64,000 bases of DNA from Candidatus Zixiibacteriota bacterium. Lineage in GTDB: Bacteria; Zixibacteria; MSB-5A5; DASWLN01. The position numbers and the translations under genes were made by a program. The stretch covers positions 3,362-67,361 of the forward strand of contig DASWLN010000168.1 of assembly GCA_036396115.1 (NCBI GenBank), read 5' to 3'. Shown here one piece after another: positions 3,710 to 57,024 of this stretch (position 1 is the first letter of the stretch; every line of letters starts with the position of its first letter). The notes under the pieces were generated by a model. That model saw nothing but the letters and a program-made list of their open reading frames with translations, did not search any database and was not told the origin of the DNA.

Positions 3710-3832
3710 AGCCTCCCCGTGATAAATCACGGAGCTTCCCAAATATGAAAGGCCCTCGGCTTCCCTCGGCTTCGCCGAGAGGCGAGCGAGACTTTCTGGT
3801 AGAGGCGAGTAATTATAATATAAGATGTTACA

Positions 3833-5719: not shown

Positions 5720-5934
5720 AAAATCGTAGGCGACCCATATGGGTCGCTTTCTTTGGAGTGCATCCTACGGATGCCGCATCGTCACGGACGGGGCACTCCA
5801 TATATAAAAAATGGATTCCCGCCTTCGCCATGCACGAACGGTGCAGGGTTTTCGCTGGAAGGACATAAAAATACGACATAAAAATTAAGCCAGCAATTTA
5901 ATTGACCGATAATTTCTATAACAGGGAGGTAATT

Positions 5935-6438
5935 ATGAATGAGAAATTCTATTATTCAAAAAGATTCTTGCGGGGGATGCTAGTTCTTGGGATTGGTTCG
6001 ATGTTCATATGTATAACTACAGTAGTGCTTGTGTCCATAAAGGACCTACCCTTCATATCAACGGAAAATCTATTATATTCCTTGCAATTCATATGCTTTG
6101 CCATTGTTGCTGCTGGGTCTTTTAGGATCCTCTTTAAGGTGAAGAGTAAGCCTGCAATTACTATAACGGACAACAAGATAGTCTTTGGGCCATATATTGT
6201 TAAGAGATTTTTTGGTGATGGTAGAAAGTTAGAACTTAACTTCGGACAGATTATTTCAGCTGTTGTAATAGACAATTGGAATATTTTTGTCCGCCCTCTT
6301 TTTGGTAAAAGGAAAGATATTGAGGTGAAATTCAAAATAGACGACGATAAAGTGAGGTCGTTTCATATCTATCTCAGTGTAGTCGACAACCCAGAAAGAC
6401 TAATTGAAATCCTCAAGCAGCACATAAAATTTGTGTGA
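5935..6438 (+). CDS. hypothetical small membrane protein (paralog of 20004..20543)
   Basis: N-terminal 2-TM segment plus a soluble domain. Shares EKFYY...ITDNKIV/ITDEKIV...L(I/V)(E/D)ILKQ with the ORF at 20004. Likely start at MNEKFYY. Confidence 0.5.
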   Translation: MNEKFYYSKRFLRGMLVLGIGSMFICITTVVLVSIKDLPFISTENLLYSLQFICFAIVAAGSFRILFKVKSKPAITITDNKIVFGPYIVKRFFGDGRKLELNFGQIISAVVIDNWNIFVRPLFGKRKDIEVKFKIDDDKVRSFHIYLSVVDNPERLIEILKQHIKFV

Positions 6439-6450
6439 ATTAGCGGTTAC

Positions 6451-6479
6451 GTAGGAACAGAACAGTGTTCTGTTCCTAC
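6451..6479. repeat. REP-like palindrome variant GTAGGAACAGAACAGTGTTCTGTTCCTAC
   Basis: Perfect inverted repeat. Same GTAGG(G)A...TCCCTAC architecture as the copies at 20436, 25034, 41731 and in the island clusters. Confidence 0.7.
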
Positions 6480-20003: not shown

Positions 20004-20543
20004 ATGGAGGAAAAATTCTATTATACAAGACAGTTTGTTAACTCGCAATTAATTGCCGCAATTCTATTTTTAGTAACGGCAATCTTGTGGAACGTTGCGT
20101 ATTCTTTGGAAGGTTGGTCAGTTTGGTGGAGAATATTTGGATTGTTATATACTCTTCTCTGTTTACACTATCTTACGATATCAATCATTATCAAAAATAA
20201 GCCCTCGGTTATTATAACCGATGAAAAGATAGTTGCCAGATCGCCATTTTTTCTCAAACATAAAATCAGTTTTGAGCAGATTATTCCGACCGCCATTATT
20301 GGTGAAAAAATTAAGCTGAAATACAAGAAGCCAAACAATAAGGAAGGTTCTTTTTCCATTGCCCACCTTCGTAAGATTGATAACTGCGAAAGACTGGTTG
20401 ATATCCTCAAGCAGCGCAAAAATTTGTATAGGAAAGTAGGGACAGGTCGCGACCTGTTCCTACAACTAAATCAACGAAACTATTACCGAATCTGCCACAG
20501 GCAGGGCTTTTTTGGTAAGACGCAAGGAGCTGCCTTGTTTTGA
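20004..20543 (+). CDS. hypothetical small membrane protein (paralog of 5935..6438) with a repeat-derived C-terminal tail
   Basis: Paralog alignment ends at ...LVDILKQRKNL. The last ~30 codons read through a REP palindrome at 20436-20463. Confidence 0.5.
   Translation: MEEKFYYTRQFVNSQLIAAILFLVTAILWNVAYSLEGWSVWWRIFGLLYTLLCLHYLTISIIIKNKPSVIITDEKIVARSPFFLKHKISFEQIIPTAIIGEKIKLKYKKPNNKEGSFSIAHLRKIDNCERLVDILKQRKNLYRKVGTGRDLFLQLNQRNYYRICHRQGFFGKTQGAALF
20436..20463. repeat. REP palindrome GTAGGGACAGGTCGCGACCTGTTCCTAC inside the 3' end of the ORF at 20004
   Basis: Same sequence as 25034 and 41731. Confidence 0.75.
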
Positions 20544-24690: not shown

Positions 24691-25033
24691 GAAAACGATT
24701 TGCAGATTATTTTATAGAAGGCGACCCATATGGGTCGTCTTCTACTTCTAATACGATGCATTCGTATCCCTGCCTTGCCCTCAAGGCAGGAGATAGGCCC
24801 ACGTTGAGGGCAACGTGGGTTTACGGTTTTAGAGATGAGGGATCGCCTCTGGGAAATAACCTCTTCGTAGTGCGGGGAATTTATCCCCGCACGGGCTGGG
24901 ACGAACCTGTCCCGTGCCGGATGGTGCGGGATTCCCAGTTCTACGAGAGAAATTAAAAATGTAGGGGCGAGGTGACCTCGCCCCTACATTAAAAATCGTC
25001 CTGACTTATCGGGATTACTACATTAAGATAGGA

Positions 25034-25061
25034 GTAGGGACAGGTCGCGACCTGTCCCTAC
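25034..25061. repeat. REP palindrome GTAGGGACAGGTCGCGACCTGTCCCTAC
   Basis: Perfect 28-bp palindrome upstream of pth. Confidence 0.8.
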
Positions 25062-31682: not shown

Positions 31683-31807
31683 GAATATATGTGCAGGGGT
31701 GAAGTTTATCTATTGCCTGAGCTGGTAGAGACGCAAAATTTTGCGTCTCTACAAACCACAGGGAATTCATCCCTGTGCGGATAATCATTTCGAAAATGGA
31801 GGTAAAT

Positions 31808-39656: not shown

Positions 39657-39880
39657 GTACGGAACAGGCATGGAGCGTTCCGTACAAAAACGGCGACATT
39701 AGAAATTGTGCCCCCGTAGGGACAGGTCGGGTGGAACATCCCGCTAGAAGGTATGATAGGGAGCAGACATGCCGCCGTGGTAATGAACGGGCATGGCGCC
39801 GTAGGGACAGGTCGAGTGGAACATCCCGCTAGAAGCGTGGAACCTGTCCTTACAGAGACGTCAATATCAAACAATCCCGG
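39657..39880. repeat. island REP cluster R1 (GTACGGAACAGGCATGGAGCGTTCCGTAC, GTAGGGACAGGTCG(G/A)GTGGAACATCCCGCTAGAAG units)
   Basis: Direct copy of these units recurs at 41648-41785 on the other side of the AbiE pair. Confidence 0.8.
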
Positions 39881-40001
39881 TTATTACCGGTTCGTATGAA
39901 TCCGTGGGTACAAAATCCCCAGAGAGAATATTTATTGACATACGAAGCTGGCAAGAGTATATTATTTTCAGTTTATCAAAAAGCACCCAACGGGGTTAAA
40001 T

Positions 40002-41647: not shown

Positions 41648-41785
41648 GTAGGGAACGGTCGCGTGGAACATCCCGCTAAAAGCGTGGAACCTGTCCCTAC
41701 AAAAACGGTGACATTAGAAATTGTGCCCCCGTAGGGACAGGTCGCGACCTGTCCTTAACAGAGACACCAATATCACAAGTTGTTT
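41648..41785. repeat. island REP cluster R2
   Basis: GTAGGGAACGGTCGCGTGGAACATCCCGCTAAAAGCGTGGAACCTGTCCCTAC plus GTAGGGACAGGTCGCGACCTGTCC. Confidence 0.8.
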
Positions 41786-42526: not shown

Positions 42527-45355
42527 ATGGAACGTTGTATGGATAAAGGTGCGCATTTTTACAGGTGTGATTTTCAAGTTCACACTCCGCGTGATCTAAA
42601 TTGGGCTGGTCCCGAGGCCGTTACACCCGAAGAAAGAAAGACATATGCGGAAGAACTGATTTTGGTTTGTCGATCCAAAGGTCTCGATGCAATCGCGATC
42701 ACGGATCATCATGACTTCGCCTTCTTCCCATACATCAAACAAGCGGCTAAAGATGAGCTTGACGACAACGGTCAACGGGTTTCTGCACACAAAAGGATCG
42801 TTGTCTTTCCTGGCATTGAAGTTACTTTAACTGCTCCGAATTGCCAAGCGTTACTTATCCTCGACGCAGACTTCCCGGAGAATCTCCTTCCAAGCGTTTT
42901 AACCGCACTGGCCATCACACCTGCGCCGGCAGAACATTCAAAGCACGCGGATGTACAGCGAATTCCCCAGAATGTTGTTAGCGATCTGACGGATTTATAT
43001 CAAAAACTGAATAGTCACCAGCAACTGAAGAATCGGTTTATCGTTTTACCTAATGTGAGCGAAACCGGATGCGGCACAATGCTACGATCCGGATTTGGTA
43101 ATTTCTATAAATCAATGCCATGCGTTGGTGGCTACACGGACGGCCCAGTGTCGCAATTTGGTACCGGGAACTTATCGATTGTTCGAGGAGAAAATCGAGA
43201 GTACGGTTTTAAGGCGATCGGAATCTTTCAAACATCTGATAATAGAAAACGCAATCACGAAGACCTCGGCAAATACACCACATGGGTTAAGTGGTCTGAG
43301 CCAACAGCGGAGGCCTTAAGACAGGCGTGTTTAGCAAAAGAATCAAGGATATCGCAAGAAGTTCCTTTGTTACCACCGGTATTCGTGACGTCAATTGATG
43401 TTTCTAACAGTAAATTCATGGGACAAATTTATCTGGAATTTAGCCAGCAATACAACGCCATAATCGGTGGTCGTGGAACTGGAAAATCAACAATCTTAGA
43501 ATATCTTAGATGGGGTTTGTGCGATCAGGTTTCAGAAATTGTACAAGATGAGGGAGAAATTCCTGGGTATCAGGAAAAAAGAAGGAAGCTTATAGAAAAG
43601 ACCCTGCTTCCGTTTGATTCTACGGTTCAGATTTCATTTGTCAAAAACAACGTTCCCCACATCCTTAGAAGAAAATCCGGAACGAACGAGATGTCTCTAA
43701 AAATTGGATCGGGGGAATTTCAACCTTGTGGTGAGGAGGATGTTAGAAACTTGCTCGCAATCCAAGCCTACAGCCAAAAGCAATTAAGCAGTGTCGGTGT
43801 CAGCATTGAGGAATTGAAAAGGCTGATTTATAGCCCCATCAGGCAAACGCTTAACGAGTTTGATTTAAAATTTGAGAAATTGCGCTCCGATATCAGAAGT
43901 TGCTATGAACTATGGCAGCAAAAAAAATTGATCGCATCTGAAATTGAGAAGGGCGAGCTTGAGCTTAAGTCATTGACTGAGCAAGTGGAAGGTCTCCGAC
44001 AAGGGCTAAAAGGAATCTCTGATCAAGATAAGGCTACAATTGCCTCCCATAAGCAATATGAAATTGTTGAGCAACATGTTGACGGTTGGCACGGAGAACT
44101 GGCGACGGCAAGAGAGGCATTAGAAACCATCAAAAGAGAACTCGCCGAGTATCCCACGACCGTACCTGATGATGTCAAATTGCCTGACACTGAGCTCATA
44201 GTTGTTACGGATATTCAGAAGACACTCAAAGACATTTTTGATGAGATTAACGCGACAGTTGATTCTTTGGGTGACAGATTAAATCCTAAGGGAGAGGTTC
44301 TGACCAAGTTAAACGATTTGATAGATAGTTGGAAAGGTGCTCTCAATCAACATAAGCGACAATATGAATCCGCAAAGCAAAAATCAACTTCACAGGAATC
44401 GACCTTAAAGCAAATCCAGATAATCGAAGATAGGGTTAAAGAAATAAGAAGATCTTTAACGGAAAGAAAGCAAGCCATGCTAAAAACAGGAGATCCCGAC
44501 ACAAAATTTAACGTCCTTAAAGAAGAGTGGTTTAACGCCCATAAGGAAAAGGCTGATTTGTTTCAAGCCCAAAGTGAGAAGTTGAATGAATTATCTGATG
44601 ATAATTTAAAAGCAACTCTAGGCAGAGGAAAGGGCACGGTAAACCTAGAAAACGTGCTAAAGGAGATAATCTCAGGTTCAAACGTGAGGAAGGAGAAAAT
44701 AGAATCTTTGTGCCAGAGAATTAAAGAGGCGACGGATCCTATTCAACAATGGAATCAAATCTTGGCCGAGTTTGAAGCAATTGCTCACTTCGATCCAACC
44801 AAAACCCCCGCCGCGACTTTACCGGCAACACCGATTTTAAGCTCTATCGGTTTTAGTGCAAACGATCTACGCAAAATAGCAGAGAAAATAAATAGCGAAA
44901 ACTGGATTGATCTATTTCTTGTTCAGTTGGACGATCTGCCTTTGTTTGAGTATCGTACTCGTGAAGGTGAGTATATAGAATTCACAGATGCTTCTGCCGG
45001 TCAACAGGCAACGTCTCTAATGAGGGTTTTATTAAATCAAGAAGGGCCTCCTCTTATAATTGATCAGCCGGAGGATGACTTGGATAATCGGATGGTTTCG
45101 GATATTGCGACTTTAATTTGGAAATCCAAGAAAACGAGGCAGTTAATATTCACAAGCCACAATGCAAACATTGTGGTTAATGGCGATGCAGAGTTGGTTG
45201 TCTGTTGCGGATACAAGGTTACGGGTGATCAATCAAAGGGTGAAATTAAGAATCAGGGAGCAATTGATATTGAGGAGATACGAGAGGAAATTATAGAGGT
45301 TATGGAGGGCGGCGAGGCAGCATTTAAGCTTCGCAAAGAAAAGTTTGGATTTTGA
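42527..45355 (+). CDS. PHP-family phosphoesterase fused to a Rad50/SMC-like ABC ATPase with a long coiled-coil insert (PplA-like defense protein)
   Basis: PHP motifs CDFQVHTPRD, AIAITDHHD, FPGIEVT. Walker A IIGGRGTGKSTILEYL. ~400 aa coiled coil. ABC signature SAGQQ, Walker B LIIDQPEDDLD, H-loop FTSHN. Alternative start at 42539. Confidence 0.7.
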   Translation: MERCMDKGAHFYRCDFQVHTPRDLNWAGPEAVTPEERKTYAEELILVCRSKGLDAIAITDHHDFAFFPYIKQAAKDELDDNGQRVSAHKRIVVFPGIEVTLTAPNCQALLILDADFPENLLPSVLTALAITPAPAEHSKHADVQRIPQNVVSDLTDLYQKLNSHQQLKNRFIVLPNVSETGCGTMLRSGFGNFYKSMPCVGGYTDGPVSQFGTGNLSIVRGENREYGFKAIGIFQTSDNRKRNHEDLGKYTTWVKWSEPTAEALRQACLAKESRISQEVPLLPPVFVTSIDVSNSKFMGQIYLEFSQQYNAIIGGRGTGKSTILEYLRWGLCDQVSEIVQDEGEIPGYQEKRRKLIEKTLLPFDSTVQISFVKNNVPHILRRKSGTNEMSLKIGSGEFQPCGEEDVRNLLAIQAYSQKQLSSVGVSIEELKRLIYSPIRQTLNEFDLKFEKLRSDIRSCYELWQQKKLIASEIEKGELELKSLTEQVEGLRQGLKGISDQDKATIASHKQYEIVEQHVDGWHGELATAREALETIKRELAEYPTTVPDDVKLPDTELIVVTDIQKTLKDIFDEINATVDSLGDRLNPKGEVLTKLNDLIDSWKGALNQHKRQYESAKQKSTSQESTLKQIQIIEDRVKEIRRSLTERKQAMLKTGDPDTKFNVLKEEWFNAHKEKADLFQAQSEKLNELSDDNLKATLGRGKGTVNLENVLKEIISGSNVRKEKIESLCQRIKEATDPIQQWNQILAEFEAIAHFDPTKTPAATLPATPILSSIGFSANDLRKIAEKINSENWIDLFLVQLDDLPLFEYRTREGEYIEFTDASAGQQATSLMRVLLNQEGPPLIIDQPEDDLDNRMVSDIATLIWKSKKTRQLIFTSHNANIVVNGDAELVVCCGYKVTGDQSKGEIKNQGAIDIEEIREEIIEVMEGGEAAFKLRKEKFGF

Positions 45356-45405: not shown

Positions 45406-45729
45406 ATGGCGATGAAGAAATCTGAACTTTACAGCTCTCTTTGGAAAAGCTGCGATGAATTAAGAGGCGGGATGGACGCCTCACAGTATAAAGACTATGT
45501 GTTGGTTTTGTTGTTTGTCAAATACATCTCTGATAAATATGCTGGCGTGACTTACGCCCCGATCACTATTCCTCAAGGTTCAGGCTTCAAGGATATGGTG
45601 GCACTCAAGGATAAGGCGACTATTGGCGACGACATCAACAAAAGAATTATCCAAAAAATTGAAGAGGCAAATCCATCGCTTGGAAATATTGCCGTTGATT
45701 TTAACGATCCAGCAAAATTAGACAGGTGG
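45406..45729 (+). pseudogene. hsdM: type I R-M methyltransferase HsdM, N-terminal fragment only
   Basis: SELYSSLWKSCDELRGGMDASQYKDYVLVLLFVKYISDKY is the HsdM_N signature. The reading frame then runs straight into repeat cluster R3, with no MTase catalytic domain. Confidence 0.65.
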
Positions 45730-45815
45730 CCCACAGCTCTGCTGTGGGACAATTGCGGAACGGTCTCGTGGAACATCCCGCTAGTGGCGTGGAACCTGTC
45801 CTTACAGAGATGTTG
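45724..45815. repeat. island REP cluster R3 (GGTGGCCCACAGCTCTGCTGTGGG plus CGGAACGGTCTCGTGGAACATCCCGCTAGTGGCGTGGAACCTGTCC)
   Basis: Same composite as 51098-51180. Confidence 0.8.
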
Positions 45816-45908
45816 ACAGAGCAAGCGGGATTGTTCTATAATATAGAACAGTTGTATGATATGAGCGAACTTGATCTATTATAATTTCAAGAATTTTGGG
45901 TAGGGTCA

Positions 45909-49387: not shown

Positions 49388-50170
49388 ATGGAAAAAATTT
49401 ACCGTAAGTCTCTTTTGTACAAAAGTGAAGTCGAATACGCAGATTTTTGTTTGAATCATGTAGAAGGATGCTCCCATGGTTGCAAATATCCGTGCTATGC
49501 TTATATGATGAAAAAGAGGTGCGGGATTGTTAAAAGCTACGATGACTGGTGCAAACCAAAAATAGTAGGTAATGCGTTAGACCTCTTAGACAAAGAAATT
49601 CCTAAATATAAAAGCAAGATCAAATATGTGCACCTCTGTTTTTCTACTGATCCATTTATGTATAATCAAGAAGAAGTGAGCGATTTAAGCCTGAAAATAA
49701 TCGATAAGCTTAATTTAAACGGTATCCGTTGCACTGTTCTGACAAAAGGCGTTTTTCCTGAAGAAGTTGGTCATAAAACTGTTTTTAGCAAAAACAACGA
49801 ATATGGCATTACACTTGTTTCATTGGATGAAAATTTCAGAAAGAAATTTGAGCCAAATTCAGCCCCTTTTCGCAATAGAATTCGTTCGCTTGAGGATATA
49901 CACAAACAAGGTTTTAAGACCTGGGTGAGCATGGAACCATACCCTACTCCTAATTTGATTAAGCAAGATTTGCTTGAAATATTGGAAGCGGTGTCCTTTG
50001 TGGACCAGATTATCTTTGGCAGGTTGAATTACAGTGTGAAATCCTCGGAGTTTGGACATGCAAAGGAATTCTATAACAGTATGGCCTCGTCAGTGATTAA
50101 GTTTTGCAGGAAGCACAAGATCAAATACCATATTAAAGATGGAACCCAGAAGCTAAGTGGTGGACAATAG
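49388..50170 (+). CDS. non-canonical three-Cys-motif radical-SAM-like protein
   Basis: CLNHVEGCSHGCKYPCY gives a Cx3Cx3C cluster in place of the canonical Cx3Cx2C (compare hemW in this window). Confidence 0.5.
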   Translation: MEKIYRKSLLYKSEVEYADFCLNHVEGCSHGCKYPCYAYMMKKRCGIVKSYDDWCKPKIVGNALDLLDKEIPKYKSKIKYVHLCFSTDPFMYNQEEVSDLSLKIIDKLNLNGIRCTVLTKGVFPEEVGHKTVFSKNNEYGITLVSLDENFRKKFEPNSAPFRNRIRSLEDIHKQGFKTWVSMEPYPTPNLIKQDLLEILEAVSFVDQIIFGRLNYSVKSSEFGHAKEFYNSMASSVIKFCRKHKIKYHIKDGTQKLSGGQ

Positions 50171-50336
50171 TCTCTTTTTAAGGCACTACTCGGCAGACAA
50201 AACAGGGATTGCTTCGCTAAAGCTCACAATGACAGCTGAATACTGCAACTTAGTACGCCACCAAAGTTTTAGCGAGTGAAGGGAAAAGGGACCTTACCCG
50301 ATGGGTGGGGTACACTTGTTATCATGGGAGAAAAAC

Positions 50337-51044
50337 ATGACTAGGGCAGATAAATTTTTGTCTCTTTTTAATCTTATTGAAAAAACCCTTCACAAAATAA
50401 GTCCTCGCGAGCCTGGTGAGGGTTTTAAGGAAATGATTAATCGTCTCAGCAAGTCTAACAAGATTATTTGCCAATATAAATATGATTTAAGGGACTACGC
50501 CGACCTTAGAAATGCAATAGTTCATCAGTTTACAGGGGAAGCCATCGCCGAACCGCACGAAGATGTTATTGCCAATCTACAAACAATCCATGATATTTTG
50601 GTTAGACCACCGACAGCCATTGAAATTTCCTCCAAACCTGTTTATTGTTGCGAAGCAAAGGATAAAATTGTTGATGTAGTAAAAACAATGACAGCCAAAG
50701 TTTACACCCATGTCCCCGTTTACGAAGATGATAGATTCGTTGGTGTTTTCTCCGAATCCAGTATTGCAAGGTGGTTAGGCGAAAATGCGGAGAAAGACGG
50801 ATTTCTTTTGAATGAAACGAGAGTTGGGGAACTAAAACAATTCTTTGAGAAAGATAATGACCCCTTCAATTCTTACAAATTTGTTTCAAAGGATATTGAC
50901 GTATTTACTATTATGGACTATTTCTTATCTTTTGTTAATGAAAATAAACGTTTAGGAGCTATTTTTGTAACGAATAGCGGCAGGAGCAGTGAAGGAATAT
51001 TAGGAATTATTACATCATGGGATTTACCAAGAATTGATAAATAG
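50337..51044 (+). CDS. HEPN-like N-domain plus tandem CBS-domain protein
   Basis: N-terminal helical domain with Rx4H (LRNAIVH). C-terminal CBS pair (VYTHVPVYEDDRFVGVFSESSIARWL and GAIFVTNSGRSSEGILGIITSWDL). Confidence 0.5.
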   Translation: MTRADKFLSLFNLIEKTLHKISPREPGEGFKEMINRLSKSNKIICQYKYDLRDYADLRNAIVHQFTGEAIAEPHEDVIANLQTIHDILVRPPTAIEISSKPVYCCEAKDKIVDVVKTMTAKVYTHVPVYEDDRFVGVFSESSIARWLGENAEKDGFLLNETRVGELKQFFEKDNDPFNSYKFVSKDIDVFTIMDYFLSFVNENKRLGAIFVTNSGRSSEGILGIITSWDLPRIDK

Positions 51045-51097
51045 AAGAGAAAAGGTACTATATTCATCGGGGCTCAGTAATACTTACCACCCCACCG

Positions 51098-51325
51098 GCA
51101 GGTGGCCCACAGCCCTGCTGTGGGAGAGTTGCGGAACGGTCTCGTGGAACATCCCGCTGAAAGCGTGGAGCCGTTCCCTACAGAGAAGGTTGCGTGGGTG
51201 ATTTTAGGGTAGGGAACAGGCATGCCTGTTCCGTACAAAACGGCCGCGTGGATGATTGTGATGTAGGGACAGGTCACGTGGATGATTTTAGCGTAGGGAA
51301 CAGTCGCGACTGTTCCCTACAAAAA
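51098..51325. repeat. island REP cluster R5
   Basis: GGTGGCCCACAGCC..., CGGAACGGTCTCGTGGAACATCCCGCTGAAAGCGTGGAGCCGTTCCCTAC, GTAGGGAACAGGCATGCCTGTTCCGTAC, 30-nt CGCGTGGATGATTGTGA units and GTAGGGAACAGTCGCGACTGTTCCCTAC. Confidence 0.8.
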
Positions 51326-51345
51326 GATGAAGGCGATGTTTGTGT

Positions 51346-52629
51346 ATGAAAGTCAATACAAAACCGGATAAACTATGGGATGTGGTGGTGATTGGTGGTG
51401 GGCCGGCGGGGATGATGGCAGCGGGGAGGGCGGCTGAGTTGGGTCGCTCGGTTTTGCTCGTCGAGAAAAACGCAATTCTTGGCAAAAAGCTTCTCCTTAC
51501 CGGCGGCGGACGGTGTAATCTTTCCAATAATAAACCAGAACTTCGCACGATGCTGGCAAAATACAAAGGCGTTGACCAATTTCTTTTCTCCGCTTTTTCA
51601 CAGTTCGGCGTAGAAGATACGCTTGAGTTTTTTAAGCGGCAAGGGATGGCGACCAAGGAGGAAGCGGAGGGGAGGATTTTCCCTGTTTCAAATAAAGCGC
51701 AAACAGTGTTGGACGTACTGGTGAGCTATATGAAAGAGGGCGGTGTTGAATTACGAACCAACTCTGTAGTTACAAGGCTTTGGGTTGATGCTTCCAATAC
51801 CGCCACACAGCACATCCGTATCCGACTTAAGGACAAAACAGAGTTGTTGGCGCAATCCTGCGTTGTTGCCAGCGGAGGCACGGCACGTCCGGCAACCGGT
51901 TCAACTGGGGATGGATTTGCGTGGCTTAAAAAAATCGGCCACACCATCATCCAGGACGACGTTGCGCTTGTGCCCGTCGCGCTTAAAGATGCGTGGGCAA
52001 AGAAACTGAGCGGAGTAACGCTTATAGATATTAAGCTCACCACTTTTCAAAACAAAGAGAAACAGGAAGTTGGGAAAGGTGAACTGCTCTTTACGCACTT
52101 TGGCATCAGCGGGCCAACAGTTTTAGATATGAGTAAAGAAATAGGAGAACTTTTAAAATACGGCGAAGTTACCATCATGCTAGATATATTTCCGAAACTT
52201 GATCACGGCGCGCTCAGGGATAAACTGCAGACGCTTTTGAATAGCCAGAGTAACAAGAAGTTAAAAAATACGATGAATAAGCTCGTCCCTTTAGCGCTTG
52301 TGCCGGCGATACTCCGACTGACTGGTGTAGATGGCCAGTTACCCAGTCATAGCCTGAGGCGCGAGCATAGGATAAAATTGGTTAGTGTGATGAAGGCCAT
52401 CCCGCTTAATGTCAAGGGTTTGCTTGGTGCGGATAAAGCGATTGTCTGTTCTGGTGGCGTAGCGCTCGAAGAAGTAGATTTCAGAACCATGCAGTCGCGC
52501 CTGGTACCAAATTTATATATTGTGGGCGATTTACTGAACATCGATCGCCCCTCAGGAGGCTATAGCCTCCAGCTCTGTTGGACAACCGGCTTTGTGGCGG
52601 GGAGCAATACGGAACGGTCGCGTGGATGA
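51346..52629 (+). CDS. HI0933/BaiN-family NAD(P)/FAD-dependent flavoprotein
   Basis: VVVIGGGPAGMMAAGRAA, GGGRCNLSN and the C-terminal HI0933 domain. Its last codons overlap the start of repeat cluster R6. Confidence 0.85.
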   Translation: MKVNTKPDKLWDVVVIGGGPAGMMAAGRAAELGRSVLLVEKNAILGKKLLLTGGGRCNLSNNKPELRTMLAKYKGVDQFLFSAFSQFGVEDTLEFFKRQGMATKEEAEGRIFPVSNKAQTVLDVLVSYMKEGGVELRTNSVVTRLWVDASNTATQHIRIRLKDKTELLAQSCVVASGGTARPATGSTGDGFAWLKKIGHTIIQDDVALVPVALKDAWAKKLSGVTLIDIKLTTFQNKEKQEVGKGELLFTHFGISGPTVLDMSKEIGELLKYGEVTIMLDIFPKLDHGALRDKLQTLLNSQSNKKLKNTMNKLVPLALVPAILRLTGVDGQLPSHSLRREHRIKLVSVMKAIPLNVKGLLGADKAIVCSGGVALEEVDFRTMQSRLVPNLYIVGDLLNIDRPSGGYSLQLCWTTGFVAGSNTERSRG

Positions 52630-52795
52630 TTGTGATGTACGGACAGGTCGCGACCTGTCCCTACAAAAACGGCCGCGTGGTTGATTGTGACGTTAGGAAC
52701 GGTCGCGTGGATGATTTTGGCGTAGGGAACAGGCATGCCTGTTCCCTACTTGAGAGCGTGGAACCGTTCCCTACAGAAACACCAATATCAAAAAA
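52609..52795. repeat. island REP cluster R6
   Basis: Tandem 30-nt CGCGTGGATGATTGTGA units interleaved with GTACGGACAGGTCGCGACCTGTCCCTAC and GTAGGGAACAGGCATGCCTGTTCCCTAC. Confidence 0.8.
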
Positions 52796-52807
52796 TGCCA
52801 ATCAACA

Positions 52808-52969
52808 ATGCGAAATAGAAAACCAAACCGTTTGAAGGGGTATGATTATTCGCAAAGTGGTGTGTATTTTGTAACCGTGTGTGCACAAAACCGCATTGAA
52901 TGGTTTGGTGAAATCGAAAACGGGGAAATGGCCTTATGCCTGGAAAAAGAAGAATCTGGATGTATATAA
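52808..52969 (+). pseudogene. REP-associated tyrosine transposase (RAYT, IS200-like Y1 transposase) N-terminal remnant
   Basis: Manual translation gives MRNRKPNRLKGYDYSQSGVYFVTVCAQNRIEWFGEIENGEMALCLEKEESGCI*. The GYDYSQxGxYFVTxCxxNR block is the characteristic RAYT N-terminus. It terminates after 53 aa, before any HUH or Tyr motifs. Abuts R6. Confidence 0.55.
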
Positions 52970-52987
52970 TCGGTTAGGGAAAGAAAA

Positions 52988-53581
52988 ATGATAATCCGTT
53001 GCACGGCAAGATTTTTAAAAGAAATGGGATTAACCAAGGCCGATCTCACCAGCAACACTTCAGAAGAATCAGAGTTGGGCGAGTGGTATACTAATCTGTT
53101 TTTTGTCGAACGTAAGAAATGTGTGATTTTTACTAATGCCCGAACTTTATTTACGTTCATATGGTTTGATGTTGATAGATCAGAGATCAGGAATCTTGGT
53201 AAGCTTTTCCGCATTGGTTTCGGCAAGGCCCTATTGGATGAAGATTTCGATGGTGCGTTGATACAGCATCTCGTTAACGAGTGCCGAGATATACGATTTG
53301 CCAAAACACAAGACAGAAGCGTACTCGGCGTTATGGTGGATCACGTCAAGAACACAAAATGGATGGTCATACGCGATGGCGGATTAGAAAAATCCGATTT
53401 CTCTGAAATAATAAAACAACTTAATCGCACACCGCTTTTAACGAAAGACTTTACTTATTCTATTGAGGAGCTTGGGAAGGTTTTGGGAGTTGCTGTAGAT
53501 ACGAAACTTAATTTTAATCCGTCTAATACGTTTTTGTCATCAAGCGCGCCCGAAATAAGGGACAATAAGGAACAGGCTTAA
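52988..53581 (+). CDS. hypothetical protein, 197 aa
   Basis: Protein-like composition on the island's coding strand. No family recognised. Confidence 0.4.
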   Translation: MIIRCTARFLKEMGLTKADLTSNTSEESELGEWYTNLFFVERKKCVIFTNARTLFTFIWFDVDRSEIRNLGKLFRIGFGKALLDEDFDGALIQHLVNECRDIRFAKTQDRSVLGVMVDHVKNTKWMVIRDGGLEKSDFSEIIKQLNRTPLLTKDFTYSIEELGKVLGVAVDTKLNFNPSNTFLSSSAPEIRDNKEQA

Positions 53582-53589
53582 GAGACAAT

Positions 53590-53770
53590 ATGGTTGATTG
53601 TGACGTACGGAACGGTCTCGTGGAACATCCCGCTGAAAGCGTGGAACCGTTCCCTACAAAAACGGCCGCGTGGATGATTGTGACGTACGGAACGGCCGCG
53701 TGGATGATTGTGACATGTGGAACGGTCGCGTGGAACATCCCGCTAACAGCGTGGAACCGTTCCCTACGAA
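53590..53770. repeat. island REP cluster R7
   Basis: Three tandem 30-nt units flanked by CGGAACGGTCTCGTGGAACATCCCGCTGAAAGCGTGGAACCGTTCCCTAC copies. Confidence 0.8.
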
Positions 53771-53797
53771 AACCGAATATACCTCGAGGAGGTTTGA

Positions 53798-54847
53798 GTG
53801 CCATTTAACCCGAAATTCACTATTACCGCGAAAATCAACAAGGCGCTGGTAGAAATTGAACGGGTGCGGGGGTTCTTAGATGCGTTGAAGCTCAAGGATG
53901 ACTGGTTTATTGATATGCAACAAAAAGCATTAATCTTAGAGTCGCACCATTCCACGCATATTGAAGGCACAGCCTTAAGCTTGCAGCAAGCCAAGTCCAT
54001 CCTGGAAGGCAAAAAGGCCAATGGTGTCAGGGCTGACGATAAAAGGGAACTTACAAATTACAAGAAGGCCATGGATTTGGTTTCAAGATATCTTGGCAAG
54101 GATGATCCAATCACCGAAAGCGCTATCTCTGGGCTTCACAAAGTTACTGTGAAAAGCGTCCGTGGCGGACAGGCAGACCCGGGCAATTACCGGAAAATCC
54201 AGAATTATGTGGTCAATTCCCGCACCCGGAAAGTAATTTACACCCCGCCGGGTCCGCTTACGGTCCCGCTTCTCATGCGCGAGTTTGTAGATTGGCTCAA
54301 CAAAACCGAGGAGGTGTCGCCGATTCTTGTTGCCGGCATAGCGCAGTTTCAGTTTGTGCATATTCATCCCTTTGTTGACGGCAATGGCCGGATGGCCCGG
54401 CTTCTCTCAACTTTAATCCTTTACAAAACCGGCTATGACTTCAAGCGGTTATTTACCATCTCGGAGTATTACGACAAAGACCGTCCAAGCTACTATAAGG
54501 CCATCCAGTCAGTGCGTGAGGGCAATATGGACATGACCGGCTGGCTGGAGTACTTCGTTTGTGGCCTGCGTTCGCAGATGGAAGAAATCCAAGCTAAAGG
54601 CCAGCAGTTAATTAAACAAGATGTCAAACTTCAGAAGATTAAAAAACTTGGGATTGGCCTGCGTCAGGAAAAGGCGGTCAAGCATCTAATTATTAAAGGT
54701 ACGATTACGGTTAATGAATATCAGGAGATTGCCTCATGTGTCCGACGGACAGCCCAGAGAGATTTGGAAGATTTAGTTGACAAAGGCATCATCCAAGCCG
54801 TGGCCAAGAGCGCTACCGATCCCACAAAGTATTACGTTTTACTGTGA
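53798..54847 (+). CDS. Fic/DOC family protein (putative AMPylase)
   Basis: Canonical Fic motif HPFVDGNGRMARL and a C-terminal wHTH (TAQRDLEDLV). Confidence 0.85.
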   Translation: MPFNPKFTITAKINKALVEIERVRGFLDALKLKDDWFIDMQQKALILESHHSTHIEGTALSLQQAKSILEGKKANGVRADDKRELTNYKKAMDLVSRYLGKDDPITESAISGLHKVTVKSVRGGQADPGNYRKIQNYVVNSRTRKVIYTPPGPLTVPLLMREFVDWLNKTEEVSPILVAGIAQFQFVHIHPFVDGNGRMARLLSTLILYKTGYDFKRLFTISEYYDKDRPSYYKAIQSVREGNMDMTGWLEYFVCGLRSQMEEIQAKGQQLIKQDVKLQKIKKLGIGLRQEKAVKHLIIKGTITVNEYQEIASCVRRTAQRDLEDLVDKGIIQAVAKSATDPTKYYVLL

Positions 54848-55062
54848 CACGTTACTGTGACATACTGTGACATGCTACTGTGACATACGGAACGGTCTCG
54901 TGGTTGATTTTAGCGTAGGGAACAGGCATGCCTGTTCCCTACAAAAACGGACGCGGGGATGATTGTGACATACGGAATGGTCGCGTGGATGATTGTGATG
55001 TAGGGACAGGTCGCGTGGATGATTGTCGCGTAGGGAATGGTCGCGACCATTCCCTACAAAAG
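54841..55062. repeat. island REP cluster R8
   Basis: (T)ACTGTGACA x4 tandem, then GTAGGGAACAGGCATGCCTGTTCCCTAC, 30-nt units and GTAGGGAATGGTCGCGACCATTCCCTAC. The Fic stop codon lies in the first ACTGTGACA unit. Confidence 0.8.
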
Positions 55063-55332
55063 ATAAAATCATTATCGGAATTGGTCGGTGCATTCAAAAC
55101 AACGTCATCAAAGCATATTCGTCAATTGTGTTTGCCTGAGTTTGGATAGCAACGGTCATTCTACGACCATGTAATACGTGATGAGAAATCATTATGTGAT
55201 GTCTAGATTTACATACAAAATAACCCACCAGGCTGGGATTTAGATAGAAATAATACGGAGAATTTGTTTATGTGATTCATTTTGTGCTGTCACTAAATAT
55301 AGGATCATAGTATAATCTATAGGAGGGCGAAG

Positions 55333-55641
55333 ATGGAGCTAGCACTTAAGATTATAGGGATGTTTTTGGGGGTTTTGGCCCGGACTTATGTCCCTTACTT
55401 ACGAAAACTAAAAGAGGGGAAGGAAACCAAGTTCAAAAAATGTTATACTCTCTCAACAGTGGCGTCGCTTGTTTTGGGTTTGATCATAACTTTACTTGTC
55501 TTTCCGCAATTTGATATTGCCAAAGCGGGCGTTGGCCTGGAAGCTTCCATCAAGTTATTCTGTCTTGCCTTTGGTTTCGGTTTTGGATGGAATAGCATAG
55601 TTTCGGAGACGATCAAATGGACAACAGGAGGCAAAAATTAG
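55333..55641 (+). CDS. hypothetical small membrane protein (102 aa)
   Basis: Three hydrophobic segments. ORF only. Confidence 0.3.
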   Translation: MELALKIIGMFLGVLARTYVPYLRKLKEGKETKFKKCYTLSTVASLVLGLIITLLVFPQFDIAKAGVGLEASIKLFCLAFGFGFGWNSIVSETIKWTTGGKN

Positions 55642-55863
55642 ATCGCCACGAGGAGGTTGTGCTCTCAAATCCTCGAAAACCGATTGGTGATAGATTTCTC
55701 TTGACTTAACTTATTGTTTCTGTAAATTGGAGTAAATAATTTTCTAAACCCTAGGATGATGAATGGGAGATAGTCCTGTTTCGATTGTAGTCCTTTTGGG
55801 AAGGGGCAAGAAATAATAATCAAATCACCTTGAGAATTAAAGGTGATTTTTTCTTTTTAAAAT

Positions 55864-57024
55864 ATGGTGCTTTCAAAGAAAATGAACTTTCTGTTTATCC
55901 TCATAATATTCGCATCTTCTTGTTCACTTGTGTGGGCAGACCAGCCTCCAATCCCACCAACTGAAGTTAAGGGCTCTGATACAAAAAACGATGCCGGTGG
56001 AAGCATAACTCTCAGCTGGAAGAGGTCGCCAGATGATGGGGCGGGGAAAAACAATATTGTCTCTTATAAGGTATTAAGGTCAAGCCAAGAAGAAGGATTC
56101 TACATCTTGATAAGTGATGTGACCGCTGGCGCAGAACAGTTTCTGGATAACAATGCCAAAGATGGGATAAAATATTTTTACAAGATAAAAGCTATAAGCA
56201 ATGAAGGTTTTTCTTTGTCCTTGCCCAGCCCAGCCATCGTGTCCAAGGCACAGTGGTTCGATACAACAAAGATCTATATACTGGCGATGTCGGTAATTCT
56301 CTTTTCGGCTATTCTTTATTTCATATCTAAAGCTAAATCGGGTAAGGAGCTTTTCATTCGCAAGATCGCCGGCTTAGACGCGGTGGATGAGGCGGTAGGT
56401 CGCGCTACGGAAATGGGGCGCAAGATAATTTACATTCCCGGAATCAATGACCTGGATGACATCCAAACTATAGCAGGTATAACCATTTTGGGTCGGGTGG
56501 CGAAATTAGTGGCTGAATATGAAGCTAAGCTTGAAGTTCCGGTTAGCCGTTCTATGGTTATGGTATCCTGTCGTGAAACAGTTAAGGAAGCATATATTAA
56601 CGCTGGTCGCCCGGATGCCTACAGCGATGATATGGTGCATTACCTGACGGATGACCAGTTTGCTTATGCGGCGGCATGCGATGGTATTTTCGTTAGAGAA
56701 AAACCGGCCGCTATATTTTTGATGGGAACTTTTTTTGCTGAATCTTTGGTCTTGGCTGAGACCGGAAACTCGGTGGGTGCAATTCAGATTGCAGGAACTG
56801 CCCGGCCTGCACAATTGCCATTCTTTGTGGCGGCTTGCGATTACACTTTAATCGGAGAGGAGCTTTTTGCTGCTTCCGCCTATCTTTCCAAAGACCCGAA
56901 GCTTTTGGGGAGCCTGAGGGGGCAGGATGTGGGGAAAGTGTTGTTCTTGCTTGGAATTTTGGTAGGGACGATCCTGATCTCTTTTAATATTTTGGATATA
57001 AGTTTTATCTTTAATGTAAGGTGA
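55864..57024 (+). CDS. cassette copy A, gene 1: signal peptide - Fn3-like ectodomain - TM - conserved ~230-aa domain - C-terminal TM
   Basis: Fn3 pattern (ITLSWKRSP...YKVLRS...YFYKIKAISNEG). Conserved motifs GLDAVDEAVGRATEMGR, AETG, QLPFFVAACDYTLIGEEL are shared with the genes at 59349 and 62816. Confidence 0.6.
   Translation: MVLSKKMNFLFILIIFASSCSLVWADQPPIPPTEVKGSDTKNDAGGSITLSWKRSPDDGAGKNNIVSYKVLRSSQEEGFYILISDVTAGAEQFLDNNAKDGIKYFYKIKAISNEGFSLSLPSPAIVSKAQWFDTTKIYILAMSVILFSAILYFISKAKSGKELFIRKIAGLDAVDEAVGRATEMGRKIIYIPGINDLDDIQTIAGITILGRVAKLVAEYEAKLEVPVSRSMVMVSCRETVKEAYINAGRPDAYSDDMVHYLTDDQFAYAAACDGIFVREKPAAIFLMGTFFAESLVLAETGNSVGAIQIAGTARPAQLPFFVAACDYTLIGEELFAASAYLSKDPKLLGSLRGQDVGKVLFLLGILVGTILISFNILDISFIFNVR

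What the first reader, a model, noticed from the sequence alone, without database searches (positions are those of the whole stretch)
52808..52969. Decayed RAYT (REP-associated tyrosine transposase) gene abutting a REP cluster explains the palindromic repeats
An unlisted 53-codon ORF translates to MRNRKPNRLKGYDYSQSGVYFVTVCAQNRIEWFGEIENGEM..., the hallmark N-terminal beta-strand of IS200-like Y1/HUH RAYT transposases. It stops prematurely before the HUH and Tyr motifs. It lies immediately after cluster R6, whose units include the GTAGGGACAGGTCGCGACCTGTCCCTAC palindrome that is also dispersed at 6451, 20436, 25034 and 41731. REPs flanking their cognate RAYT form the canonical REPIN arrangement, so the dispersed palindromes are probably REPs once mobilised by this now-dead transposase.
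Basis: partly seen in the sequence, partly recalled or inferred. Interest (0 to 1): 0.65.

Follow-up and report, generated by a model that had tools for sequence, protein, structure and literature searches.

The report
Broken REP transposase gene, both halves
The short ORF really is the front end of a dead REP-associated tyrosine transposase (RAYT) gene sitting among its palindromic REP repeats. Its back end lies 2 kb downstream, past two inserted defence-type genes, and this kind of gene-plus-repeat system has already been described.

Summary
**Observation confirmed.**
- ORF 52808-52969 exists. Its first 43 codons match the N-terminus of about 170-190-aa RAYT/TnpA_REP proteins (tblastn E=7e-20, 79% to P0008).
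- A metagenome contig from a related Zixibacteria lineage (L005) carries an intact RAYT at the same chromosomal position, downstream of the same flavoprotein gene.
It is on the same strand (E=4e-29), keeps the YIQNNP tyrosine motif and has two in-frame TAG codons.
- The 41 codons that include the HUH motif are absent. In their place are 2069 bp carrying a DUF6933 gene, a SoFic-like Fic gene and two REP arrays.

**Family.** The motifs, the "double-foot" GTAG...CTAC palindromes, and a REP lying in frame inside the gene all match TnpA_Y1 subclass 2.4 (Quentin et al. 2018). The in-gene REP is therefore published.

**REPs in the window.** There are 10 clusters of this REP family. The four largest surround the gene remnants.

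**Open points.**
- The C-terminal piece may come from the same copy as the N-terminal piece or from a second copy. Its nearest relatives differ from those of the N-terminal piece.
- An intact RAYT elsewhere in the genome could not be looked for.

**Verdict.** This is a new member of a known kind, of modest interest.

The parts
51132..51325 (.). REP array between the CBS-domain gene and the HI0933-like gene. It holds a long hairpin unit, 30-nt half-units and double-foot palindromes at 51209 and 51293.
51346..52629 (+). HI0933-like FAD flavoprotein gene, used as the synteny anchor. Its native stop is lost because the REP array begins at 52609 and adds 7 codons.
   Evidence: Pfam 2e-76. 81% aa identity to L005 and 86.5% to L088. 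Alignment.
52608..52780 (.). Its last two units are collinear with the array upstream of the intact RAYT in L005.
   Evidence: Predicted hairpin stability.
52775..52807 (+). RAYT 5' leader (AGAAACACCAATATCA...). It is conserved in L005, and the same motif follows the REP arrays at 39854 and 41760.
   Evidence: 3 matches against 0.02 expected
52808..52936 (+). RAYT N-terminal remnant, codons 1-43 (MRNRKPNRLKGYDYSQSGVYFVTVCAQNRIEWFGEIENGEMAL). The ORF then runs on through unrelated codons to the stop at 52967-52969.
   Evidence: tblastn E=7e-20, 79% to P0008. blastn collinear with L005 up to 52931. NF047646 positions 6-33.
52932..52987 (.). Junction filler. It shows no similarity to the RAYT middle in L005 or to the DUF6933 upstream region in L088.
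   Evidence: alignment score no better than shuffles
52988..53581 (+). DUF6933 gene, a PADLOC candidate defence family (PDC-S63). The module 52981-53588 is 89% identical to L088, where it lies upstream of the HI0933 gene.
   Evidence: Pfam 1.1e-39. PADLOC 2.9e-17..
53595..53773 (.). REP array between DUF6933 and Fic, made of two long hairpin units and 30-nt units
53798..54847 (+). Fic-domain gene, SoFic-like, with the HPFVDGNGR motif
   Evidence: Pfam Fic 7e-18. PADLOC SoFic 2.4e-63. Among 80 relatives at 70-82% identity, none lies next to a RAYT or a REP.
54840..54885 (+). Four copies of TACTGTGACA. In relatives L005 and L088 this element lies between the HI0933 gene and the array upstream of the RAYT.
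54879..55059 (+). REP array that runs into the RAYT reading frame. The last two units (55000-55059) encode VGTGRVDDCRVGNGRDHSLQ in frame, and they include the palindrome GTAGGGAATGGTCGCGACCATTCCCTAC at 55030-55057.
55060..55275 (+). RAYT C-terminal remnant: KIKSLSELVGAFKTTSSKHIRQLCLPEFG*QRSFYDHVIRDEKSLCDV*IYIQNNPPGWDLDRNNTENLFM*. In-frame TAG at 55147-55149 (TGG in L005) and at 55204-55206 (CGG in L005). Tyr motif YIQNNP present. Natural stop at 55273-55275.
   Evidence: tblastn E=4e-29. NF047646 E=1.6e-7, positions 71-131. Y1_Tnp E=0.0024..
25034..25061 (.). Dispersed intergenic REP, an exact copy of GTAGGGACAGGTCGCGACCTGTCCCTAC
   Evidence: Predicted DNA hairpin -12.2 kcal/mol, z=-6.8.
20436..20463 (.). 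Dispersed REP with 1 mismatch, lying between convergent genes. ORF 20004-20543 reads through it.
41648..41758 (.). Composite REP: a long hairpin unit plus a palindrome with 2 mismatches, followed by the leader-like motif
39657..39860 (.). Composite REP array, followed by the leader-like motif and a possible third RAYT remnant at 39844-39985
45756..45808 (.). Long-hairpin REP unit at the 3' end of ORF 45406-45816

Best explanation
**What it is.** This is the wreck of a "REPtron", a RAYT gene with its REPs, in the chromosome of a Zixibacteria MAG. The gene belonged to TnpA_Y1 subclass 2.4 (Bertels' RAYT group 4).

**How an intact copy works.** It encodes a protein of about 175-185 aa with an HUH motif and a single catalytic tyrosine. 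This is a single-strand DNA endonuclease that recognises REP hairpins by their GTAG foot, and it is thought to cut and rejoin them and so spread REPs through the genome. That step rests on published work with E. coli TnpA_REP and is not shown here.

**What is left here.**
- Codons 1-43 at 52808-52936.
- A 3' remnant at 55000-55275 with two nonsense codons.
- The 41 codons that include the metal-binding HUH motif are gone. In their place are 2069 bp with two defence-type genes (DUF6933/PDC-S63-like and SoFic-like Fic) and REP arrays.
- No functional enzyme can be made from this locus.

**The REPs.** The palindromes and long hairpins around the remnants, inside the remnant's frame, and scattered through the window are the cognate "double-foot" REPs of this subclass.

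**How the locus was reshaped.** More than one event was needed, and recombination between REP arrays is the most likely route (inferred). It is unsettled whether the 3' remnant comes from the same gene copy as the 5' remnant or from a second copy.
For: **Homology**
- N-fragment: E=7e-20, 79% to P0008. C-fragment: E=4e-29.
- A concatenate of the two fragments hits 613 family proteins, best E=2.8e-39.
- The same concatenate hits NF047646 (REP-associated tyrosine transposase) at E=1.6e-10, with profile positions about 34-70 missing.
- A profile of the family hits E. coli TnpA_REP (PDB 4ER8) at E=7.6e-5 across the HUH and W/Y motifs.
- The alignment shows the PNHxHG column absent from the window, and WQ(R/K)SFYDH and YIxNNP present in the C-fragment.

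**Synteny**
- L005 has the order HI0933 gene, REP array, intact RAYT (P0008), REP array.
- L005 1-1563 aligns with window 51384-52931 at 81% identity. L005 1687-1876 aligns with window 55001-55190 at 75%.
- L005 1564-1686, which includes VVMPNHFHGII, therefore has no counterpart in the window.

**Subclass features.** Quentin et al. [quoted passage not shown] All of these are seen in L005 or in the window.

**REPs**
- 10 matches to the palindrome pattern against 0.08 expected.
- 10 clusters of this family, with the four largest (173-194 nt) at 51.1-55.1 kb.
- Predicted hairpins of -11.4 to -12.2 kcal/mol, z -6.5 to -7.9.
- 45 of 82 RAYT loci from other genomes carry such a palindrome inside the gene.

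**Other checks**
- No other RAYT-length match in the window.
- The left junction is identical in four assemblies.
Against: - Pfam Y1_Tnp does not detect the N-fragment. It scores the C-fragment below the gathering threshold: 18.4 against 23 bits.
- Even intact homologues score 50-76 bits on NF047646, below its 80-bit cut-off. The family is therefore a relative of the curated equivalog and not a formal member of it.
- The C-fragment is only 57-61% identical to the C-terminal region of P0008, which is about the family median. In bootstraps its nearest neighbour was never P0008 (0 of 200), whereas P0008 was nearest to the N-fragment in 88 of 200.
- The TACTGTGACA element, which in relatives lies upstream of the RAYT, sits to the right of the cassette. 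A single clean insertion does not explain this layout.
- Activity of this RAYT subclass on these REPs has not been shown experimentally.
- The rest of the genome could not be searched for an intact copy.
Confidence: 0.87

Rival explanations
1. One intact RAYT gene was split in a single step by insertion of a mobile DUF6933-Fic cassette, and the two remnants are the two halves of that one gene.
For: - Both pieces lie on the same strand, in the right order, and miss only the middle.
- L005 has a single RAYT at this position.
- The two-unit internal REP architecture (LGNGRMDGCVVGNGRDRSLQ against VGTGRVDDCRVGNGRDHSLQ) is shared with P0008.
Against: - 123 bp of the gene are missing, so it is not merely interrupted.
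- The TACTGTGACA element lies upstream of the RAYT in L005 and downstream of HI0933 in L088. In the window it lies to the right of the cassette.
- The nearest relatives of the C-fragment differ from those of the N-fragment.
- In L088 DUF6933 occurs without Fic. Of 80 Fic relatives, 79 lack DUF6933, so the pair is not a recurrent cassette.
- The cassette has no terminal repeats or target duplication.
Confidence: 0.25
2. The two remnants come from two different RAYT copies, or from a gene that recombined at its internal REP array. One copy lost its 3' part and the other lost its 5' part by recombination between REP arrays.
For: - The N- and C-fragments have discordant nearest neighbours.
- The layout TACTGTGACA element, REP array, C-fragment mimics the L005 layout of that element, REP array and RAYT, minus the 5' two-thirds.
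- A possible third remnant at 39844-39985 suggests the genome once held several copies.
- The subclass 2.4 row of Table 1 in Quentin 2018 carries a value of 1.5, which I read as mean copies per genome. The column was not confirmed.
Against: - The fragments are short (43 and 71 aa) and the C-fragment is a pseudogene, so its placement is noisy.
- L005 shows only one RAYT here.
- At the nucleotide level the C-fragment is still 75% identical to L005.
Confidence: 0.45
3. The locus is dead, but the REPs in this genome are still maintained by another, intact RAYT elsewhere. In that case this remnant does not "explain" the dispersed palindromes.
For: - Some dispersed copies are perfect palindromes (25034).
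- Subclass 2.4 genomes may hold more than one copy (the 1.5 value in Table 1 of PMC6006769, read as copies per genome).
Against: - The 64-kb window has no other RAYT.
- The largest REP arrays are concentrated around these remnants.
- The genome-contig scan returned no close intact relative from this organism, although the MAG may not be in that collection.
Confidence: 0.3
4. The fragment is a remnant of an ordinary IS200/IS605 transposase (TnpA), or it is a chance ORF unrelated to the palindromes.
For: - IS200 TnpA and RAYTs share the Y1/HUH fold and the Pfam family PF01797.
- The Pfam search on the 53-aa ORF found nothing.
Against: - The best named matches are RAYT or REP-associated tyrosine transposase.
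- The YIxNNP and WQ motifs and the N-terminal NRLKGYDYS extension are signatures of subclass 2.4, not of IS200.
- No TnpB-sized gene lies nearby: the neighbours are DUF6933, Fic, the flavoprotein gene and a 102-aa protein gene.
- Chance is excluded by E=7e-20 and by synteny with L005.
Confidence: 0.02

Closest known systems
TnpA_Y1 subclass 2.4 (RAYT group 4 of Bertels et al. 2017), as described by Quentin, Siguier, Chandler and Fichant 2018 (PMC6006769)
   Same: - The published motifs are HuH NH[IFV]H, WQ and YIxNNP. The orthologue P0008 has PNHFHG, HWQK and a deviant YVVNNS at the Y motif. The window's C-fragment has (W>stop)QRSFYDH and YIQNNP.
- There is a short conserved N-terminal extension.
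[quoted passage not shown]
- The cognate REPs are long and "double foot" (5' GTAG ... CTAC 3').
- The distribution across phyla is patchy.
   Different: - This copy is a pseudogene with the HUH segment deleted and two nonsense codons.
- The host is a Zixibacteria MAG, a phylum not highlighted in that paper.
- Besides simple palindromes, the local REP arrays contain tandem 30-nt half-units and 53-57-nt hairpins.
E. coli TnpA_REP (YafM) with REP/BIME, the REPtron (PDB 4ER8; Ton-Hoang 2012 and Messing 2012, as cited in PMC6006769 and PMC3733652)
   Same: - HUH and single-tyrosine core.
- REPs with a GTAG foot flank the gene.
- The family profile aligns to the HUH and W...Y regions of 4ER8.
   Different: - It belongs to a different subclass (2.2: DHLH, WE, YIHYNP).
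- Its REPs are imperfect bulged hairpins, not double-foot palindromes.
- It has no REP inside the gene.
- Sequence similarity to the present family is only marginal (E=7.6e-5 with a profile, nothing with a single sequence).
REPIN-RAYT systems of Pseudomonas and Enterobacteria (Bertels and Rainey 2011, groups 2 and 3)
   Same: A RAYT gene, typically single-copy, is associated with short palindromic repeats that occur as inverted pairs. The double-foot palindrome is formally a REP doublet without a spacer (a remark in PMC6006769).
   Different: - Group 4 RAYTs show much lower flanking 16-mer abundance in Bertels 2017.
- The REP doublets here have no spacer, or have a structured spacer of about 29 nt.
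- Vertical persistence was not tested.
REP insertions inside protein-coding genes (Di Nocera et al. 2013, PMC3733652)
   Same: REPs are tolerated in frame in loops or linkers, or at gene ends. In this window that applies to the RAYT linker, the 3' end of the HI0933-like gene, and ORF 20004-20543.
   Different: Here the host gene is the RAYT itself, and the same palindrome is read in two different frames in different homologues.

Membership tests
RAYT / TnpA_REP (TnpA_Y1 subclass 2.4) | Significant sequence similarity to family members over the conserved core | tested here: met
   - tblastn E=7e-20 for the N-fragment and 4e-29 for the C-fragment.
- 613 homologues for the concatenate of the two fragments, many named RayT or REP-associated tyrosine transposase.
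RAYT / TnpA_REP (TnpA_Y1 subclass 2.4) | HuH motif NH[IFV]H (metal binding) | tested here: not met
   - Absent from the window. The 41 codons that contain it in L005 (VVMPNHFHGII, L005 1564-1686) have no counterpart.
- Present in the syntenic orthologue P0008.
- The locus is therefore a remnant of a member, not a functional member.
RAYT / TnpA_REP (TnpA_Y1 subclass 2.4) | Conserved WQ upstream of the Tyr motif (GTAG recognition region) | tested here: inconclusive
   The homologous stretch is present (EFG*QRSFYDH), but the W codon is TAG at 55147-55149 (TGG in L005).
RAYT / TnpA_REP (TnpA_Y1 subclass 2.4) | Tyr motif YIxNNP | tested here: met
   YIQNNP is present in the C-fragment, immediately after the second in-frame TAG. 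The motif definition comes from PMC6006769 Table 1.
RAYT / TnpA_REP (TnpA_Y1 subclass 2.4) | Curated profile thresholds (Pfam PF01797 gathering score, NCBIfam NF047646 cut-off) | tested here: not met
   - N-fragment: no Pfam hit. C-fragment: 18.4 bits against 23.
- NF047646 gives 41 bits for the concatenate of the two fragments against a cut-off of 80.
- Intact homologues also stay below that cut-off, at 50-76 bits.
RAYT / TnpA_REP (TnpA_Y1 subclass 2.4) | Canonical REPs (5' GT[AG]G at the foot of a hairpin) within about 1 kb of the gene | tested here: met
   - REP arrays at 52608-52780 and 54879-55059 abut the remnants.
- L005 has REP arrays on both sides of the intact gene.
- Hairpins are predicted to be stable.
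RAYT / TnpA_REP (TnpA_Y1 subclass 2.4) | [quoted passage not shown] | tested here: met
   - 55000-55059 is in frame and encodes VGTGRVDDCRVGNGRDHSLQ.
- 45 of 82 related loci carry an internal double-foot palindrome. Its offset from the start is 0 or 1 modulo 3 and never 2.
RAYT / TnpA_REP (TnpA_Y1 subclass 2.4) | Sequence-specific cleavage and joining of single-stranded REP DNA | not testable with these tools
   This needs biochemistry. It is known only for E. coli TnpA_REP (cited in PMC3733652 and PMC6006769).
REPIN (inverted REP doublet) | Two REPs in inverted orientation that form one larger hairpin | tested here: met
   - The 28-nt palindromes are spacer-less doublets.
- The 53-57-nt units (GTACGGAACGG...CCGTTCCCTAC) pair their ends around a spacer of about 29 nt.
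- Genome-wide population structure was not testable.
IS200/IS605 insertion sequence | TnpA, often with TnpB, bounded by subterminal hairpins, usually in multiple identical copies | tested here: not met
   - No TnpB-like neighbour.
- No second copy in the window.
- The motifs are those of subclass 2.4, not subclass 1.1.
SoFic defence protein (the inserted Fic gene) | Match to the PADLOC SoFic model, plus the Fic motif HxFx(D/E)GNGR | tested here: met
   - PADLOC SoFic E=2.4e-63 over residues 11-337.
- HPFVDGNGR is present in the translation.
- A defence function was not tested.

The most novel reading that the evidence does not exclude
The REP array inside subclass 2.4 RAYT genes may not be a passive, tolerated insertion. 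It could be a functional element in cis, and two roles seem possible.
- **Seed copy.** It may be a master copy of the REP that travels with the gene. The identical 28-mer GTAGGGACAGGTCGCGACCTGTCCCTAC lies inside RAYT genes of at least 17 loci from many phyla, and it is read in either of the two stop-free frames.
- **Recombination or integration site.** Genes might be captured through it. On this reading, the defence-gene pair in the window arrived through REP- or RAYT-mediated recombination at that internal array, and REP arrays here would act somewhat like cassette junctions in a hypervariable defence island.
Probability: 0.12. Interest if true: 0.6.

Novelty: new member of a known kind. Interest (0 to 1): 0.3.

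Why it matters
- **Annotation.** It identifies three unannotated ORFs in this MAG, called at 45, 69 and 73 aa, as pieces of a RAYT/REP system. It also explains the dense palindromes in the window.
- **A natural comparison.** Two related Zixibacteria lineages from the same metagenome carry the locus in different states: one has the RAYT intact (L005) and one has it destroyed (the window). With whole genomes one could ask whether REP populations decay once their RAYT is lost, which is an open question in REPIN-RAYT biology.
- **Rearrangement.** The breakpoints between three relatives fall at REP or REP-like elements, in a region that collects defence genes.
- **Limits.** None of this changes the current picture of RAYTs. 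The most striking feature, a REP in frame inside the gene, was published in 2018.

Tried and rejected
- **Pfam on the 53-aa ORF and on the 73-aa ORF 54928-55149.** No hits. These are too short for the models and say nothing against homology.
- **phmmer of P0008 against PDB.** Nothing. A family profile was needed.
- **Rfam on 50000-56500.** Only a chance snoRNA hit at E=0.92, so the repeats are not a curated RNA family.
- **Residual RAYT sequence in the filler 52932-52987.** None. The alignment score was no better than shuffles.
- **Further RAYT copies in the window.** Only REP-derived peptide matches, plus one weak remnant at 39844.
- **Whether Fic travels with a RAYT or with REPs.** 80 metagenomic Fic relatives were scanned. 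None had a RAYT or a REP, and one had a distant DUF6933. The idea of a recurrent RAYT-Fic or DUF6933-Fic cassette is rejected.
- **More sister loci through the 90% cluster of the HI0933 protein.** The cluster has a single member.
- **Correlation of N- and C-fragment similarity across homologues.** This is biased, because the homologues were selected with the concatenate of the two fragments. It was replaced by a nearest-neighbour bootstrap.
- **First palindrome pattern.** It had the wrong length and found nothing. It was corrected.

Full report
**1. The observation**

ORF 52808-52969 (+) exists and translates exactly as quoted. Only its first 43 codons (52808-52936) look like a RAYT. tblastn with 120 family proteins gives E=7e-20 and 79% identity to P0008 residues 1-43, and 111 of the queries hit this spot.

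Profile libraries barely see so short a piece. Pfam Y1_Tnp finds nothing at E<=1. NCBIfam NF047646 (REP-associated tyrosine transposase) gives E=0.071 on profile positions 6-33.

The REP cluster just upstream (52608-52780) and the dispersed palindromes are real. GTAGGGA-N14-TCCCTAC with up to 2 mismatches matches 10 times against 0.08 expected. There are two small inaccuracies in the finding:
- The unit in the cluster differs from the quoted palindrome by one base (GTAC for GTAG).
- The element at 6451 is a different 29-nt palindrome that shares only the feet.

**2.

On the same strand, 2.1 kb downstream, frame translation gives this sequence:

VGTGRVDDCRVGNGRDHSLQKIKSLSELVGAFKTTSSKHIRQLCLPEFG*QRSFYDHVIRDEKSLCDV*IYIQNNPPGWDLDRNNTENLFM*

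It spans 55000-55275 and is the C-terminal half of the same protein family:
- tblastn E=4e-29.
- NF047646 E=1.6e-7, profile positions 71-131.
- Pfam Y1_Tnp E=0.0024.

It carries the Tyr motif YIQNNP. It also has two in-frame TAG codons, at 55147-55149 (TGG in the orthologue) and at 55204-55206 (CGG in the orthologue). In the alignment with 22 full-length homologues, the column block with the HUH motif (PNHxHG) has no counterpart in the window.

**3. Synteny settles what happened on the left side**

The window comes from a candidate division Zixibacteria MAG. Its LepA is 100% identical to an NCBI protein with that name. The region 49988-56581 is identical to an ENA metagenome contig, and parts of it recur in three other assemblies.

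Contig L005 comes from the same JGI metagenome as one of those assemblies, and it shows the following:
- It carries the orthologous HI0933-like flavoprotein gene, 81% identical at the protein level.
- That gene is followed by a REP array, an intact 185-aa RAYT (P0008) and another REP array.

The blastn comparison with the window gives:
- L005 1-1563 aligns with window 51384-52931 at 81% identity, straight through the array, the 5' leader and the first 41 codons.
- The alignment resumes at L005 1687 with window 55001, at 75% identity.
- The intervening 123 nt of L005 (41 codons, including VVMPNHFHGII) are replaced in the window by 2069 nt.

Those 2069 nt contain:
- a 56-nt filler of unknown origin;
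- a DUF6933 gene at 52988-53581;
- a REP array at 53595-53773;
- a Fic gene at 53798-54847;
- four TACTGTGACA repeats;
- another REP array, which runs in frame into the C-terminal remnant.

PADLOC assigns Fic to SoFic (E=2.4e-63) and DUF6933 to the candidate defence family PDC-S63 (E=2.9e-17).

**4. Not a simple insertion**

A second relative, L088 (86.5% protein identity in the flavoprotein), has DUF6933 directly upstream of the flavoprotein gene. It has no REPs and no RAYT, and AbiE-type genes lie nearby. The locus is therefore hypervariable.

Several observations argue against a one-step insertion:
- The breakpoints between the window and L088 fall at the 3' end of a REP (51319/51320) and in REP-foot-like AATAAGGGACA repeats.
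- The TACTGTGACA element lies between the flavoprotein gene and the upstream REP array in L005, and after the flavoprotein gene in L088. In the window it lies to the right of Fic.
- P0008 is the nearest relative of the N-fragment in 88 of 200 bootstraps. It is never the nearest relative of the C-fragment (57-61% identity, about the family median).
- Eighty metagenomic relatives of the Fic gene show no RAYT or REP nearby.

I conclude that at least two events shaped the locus, probably recombination between REP arrays. The 3' remnant may belong to the same gene, to a second copy, or to a recombinant. This remains open.

A weak third remnant at 39844-39985 resembles the linker and following helix of P0044 (E=1.9e-4). 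It hints that several copies once existed.

**5. Which family, and is the in-gene REP new?**

Homologues encode VGTGRDLSLQ or RDRSRPVPT just before KIKSLSELIGAFK. These are the two stop-free translations of the palindrome GTAGGGACAGGTCGCGACCTGTCCCTAC. The third frame begins with TAG.

I surveyed 80 loci from named genomes plus L005 and L006:
- 45 carry a strict double-foot palindrome inside the gene, 217-357 nt from the start.
- The offset is 0 or 1 modulo 3 and never 2.
- 17 carry the identical 28-mer, across Patescibacteria, Bacteroidota, Nitrospinota, Gammaproteobacteria and Spirochaetia.

This looked novel, but it is published. Quentin et al. 2018 (PMC6006769) define TnpA_Y1 subclass 2.4 (Bertels group 4) by:
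- HuH NH[IFV]H, WQ and YIxNNP;
- "long" and "double foot" REPs;

Most of these are seen in L005 and the window. P0008 itself has YVVNNS where the published Y motif is YIxNNP. A profile of the family also aligns to E. coli TnpA_REP (4ER8) across both catalytic regions (E=7.6e-5). Intact homologues nevertheless stay below the NCBIfam equivalog cut-off, at 50-76 bits against 80.

**6. The REPs in the window**

There are ten clusters of this family.
- The four large ones (173-194 nt) lie at 51132-51325, 52608-52780, 53595-53773 and 54879-55061, all around the remnants.
- Small ones lie at 20436, 25034, 39716-39844, 41652-41754 and 45756-45782.
- All sit at gene ends or between genes.
- Unit types are 28-nt double-foot palindromes, 53-57-nt hairpins with the same feet, and tandem 30-nt half-units.
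- Predicted DNA hairpins are strong: -11.4 to -12.2 kcal/mol, z -6.5 to -7.9.
- Rfam has no matching family.
- Three other double-foot palindrome families occur, at 6451, 24961 and 31725.

**7. Mechanism**

Shown here: the locus cannot make a functional enzyme, because the HUH segment is absent and the remnant has two nonsense codons.

Inferred from published work on E. coli TnpA_REP (cited in PMC3733652 and PMC6006769): the intact ancestor recognised the GTAG foot of REP hairpins on single-stranded DNA, then cut and rejoined them, and so seeded the dispersed copies.

Not testable here: whether another intact RAYT in this genome still serves the REPs.

**8. Verdict**

This is an ordinary pseudogenised member of a described RAYT subclass with its described REP type, in a phylum where it had not been highlighted. 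The extra value is modest. The locus offers a natural comparison of intact and destroyed RAYT copies in co-occurring lineages, and it shows rearrangement breakpoints at REP elements in a region rich in defence genes.

Noticed in passing
L006, L011, L015, L017, L026, L036, L039, L040, L046, L051, L052, L056, L063, L066, L072, L073, L084 (inside the RAYT match in each): The identical 28-mer GTAGGGACAGGTCGCGACCTGTCCCTAC lies inside RAYT genes of very different phyla, although the proteins are only about 50-65% identical. It is read in either of its two stop-free frames. Most of these loci have no other copy within 5 kb. This suggests constraint at the DNA level, or co-transfer of the REP with its RAYT, and goes beyond the "tolerated insertion" view in Quentin 2018.
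   Followed up: partly
window 39844-39985 (+): A possible third RAYT remnant. LSLQRRQYQTIPVITGSYESVGTKSPERIFIDIRSWQEY resembles P0044 residues 94-134, from the linker to the WQ motif (tblastn E=1.9e-4). It lies directly after a REP array.
   Followed up: partly
window 39854-39869, 41760-41775, 52775-52790: The motif AGARACRYCAATATCA follows three REP arrays (0.02 matches expected by chance). At 52775 it is the 5' leader of the RAYT, and it is conserved in L005. In homologue P0044 the same sequence appears to be translated as part of the linker (KRQYQIIP).
   Followed up: partly
window 54840-54885; L005 1298-1323; L088 9963-10000: TACTGTGACA tandem repeats occur only once in the window, after Fic. 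In two relatives they lie downstream of the HI0933-like gene. AATAAGGGACA repeats, which resemble a degenerate REP foot, follow DUF6933 and HI0933 in the relatives and coincide with rearrangement breakpoints.
   Followed up: partly
window 52609-52629: The HI0933-like flavoprotein gene has lost its native stop (GSNS* in L005 and L088). It now ends 7 codons into the REP array (GSNTERSRG*).
   Followed up: yes
window 20004-20543 and 5902-6438: Two paralogous genes of about 178 aa each have a double-foot palindrome at the 3' end, and the two palindromes belong to different families. The ORF at 20004 reads through its REP (...VGTGRDLFLQ...), which lengthens the predicted protein.
   Followed up: no
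window 24961-24987 and 31725-31752: Two further double-foot GTAG...CTAC palindromes with unrelated stems: GTAGGGGCGAGGTGACCTCGCCCCTAC and GTAGAGACGCAAAATTTTGCGTCTCTAC. The genome holds several REP families.
   Followed up: no
window 42527-45355 (+); L088 601-5543: A 942-aa SMC/AAA protein matches the PADLOC Ppl model (E=4.5e-50). The relative L088 carries AbiEi/AbiEii, GIY-YIG, RadC and HsdM_N genes next to the same Radical-SAM and flavoprotein genes. The neighbourhood behaves like a defence island.
   Followed up: no
window 667-5719: yidC, mnmE and mnmG lie at the start of the window, and GC skew is positive over most of the window. This is consistent with an origin-proximal chromosomal region.
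   Followed up: no
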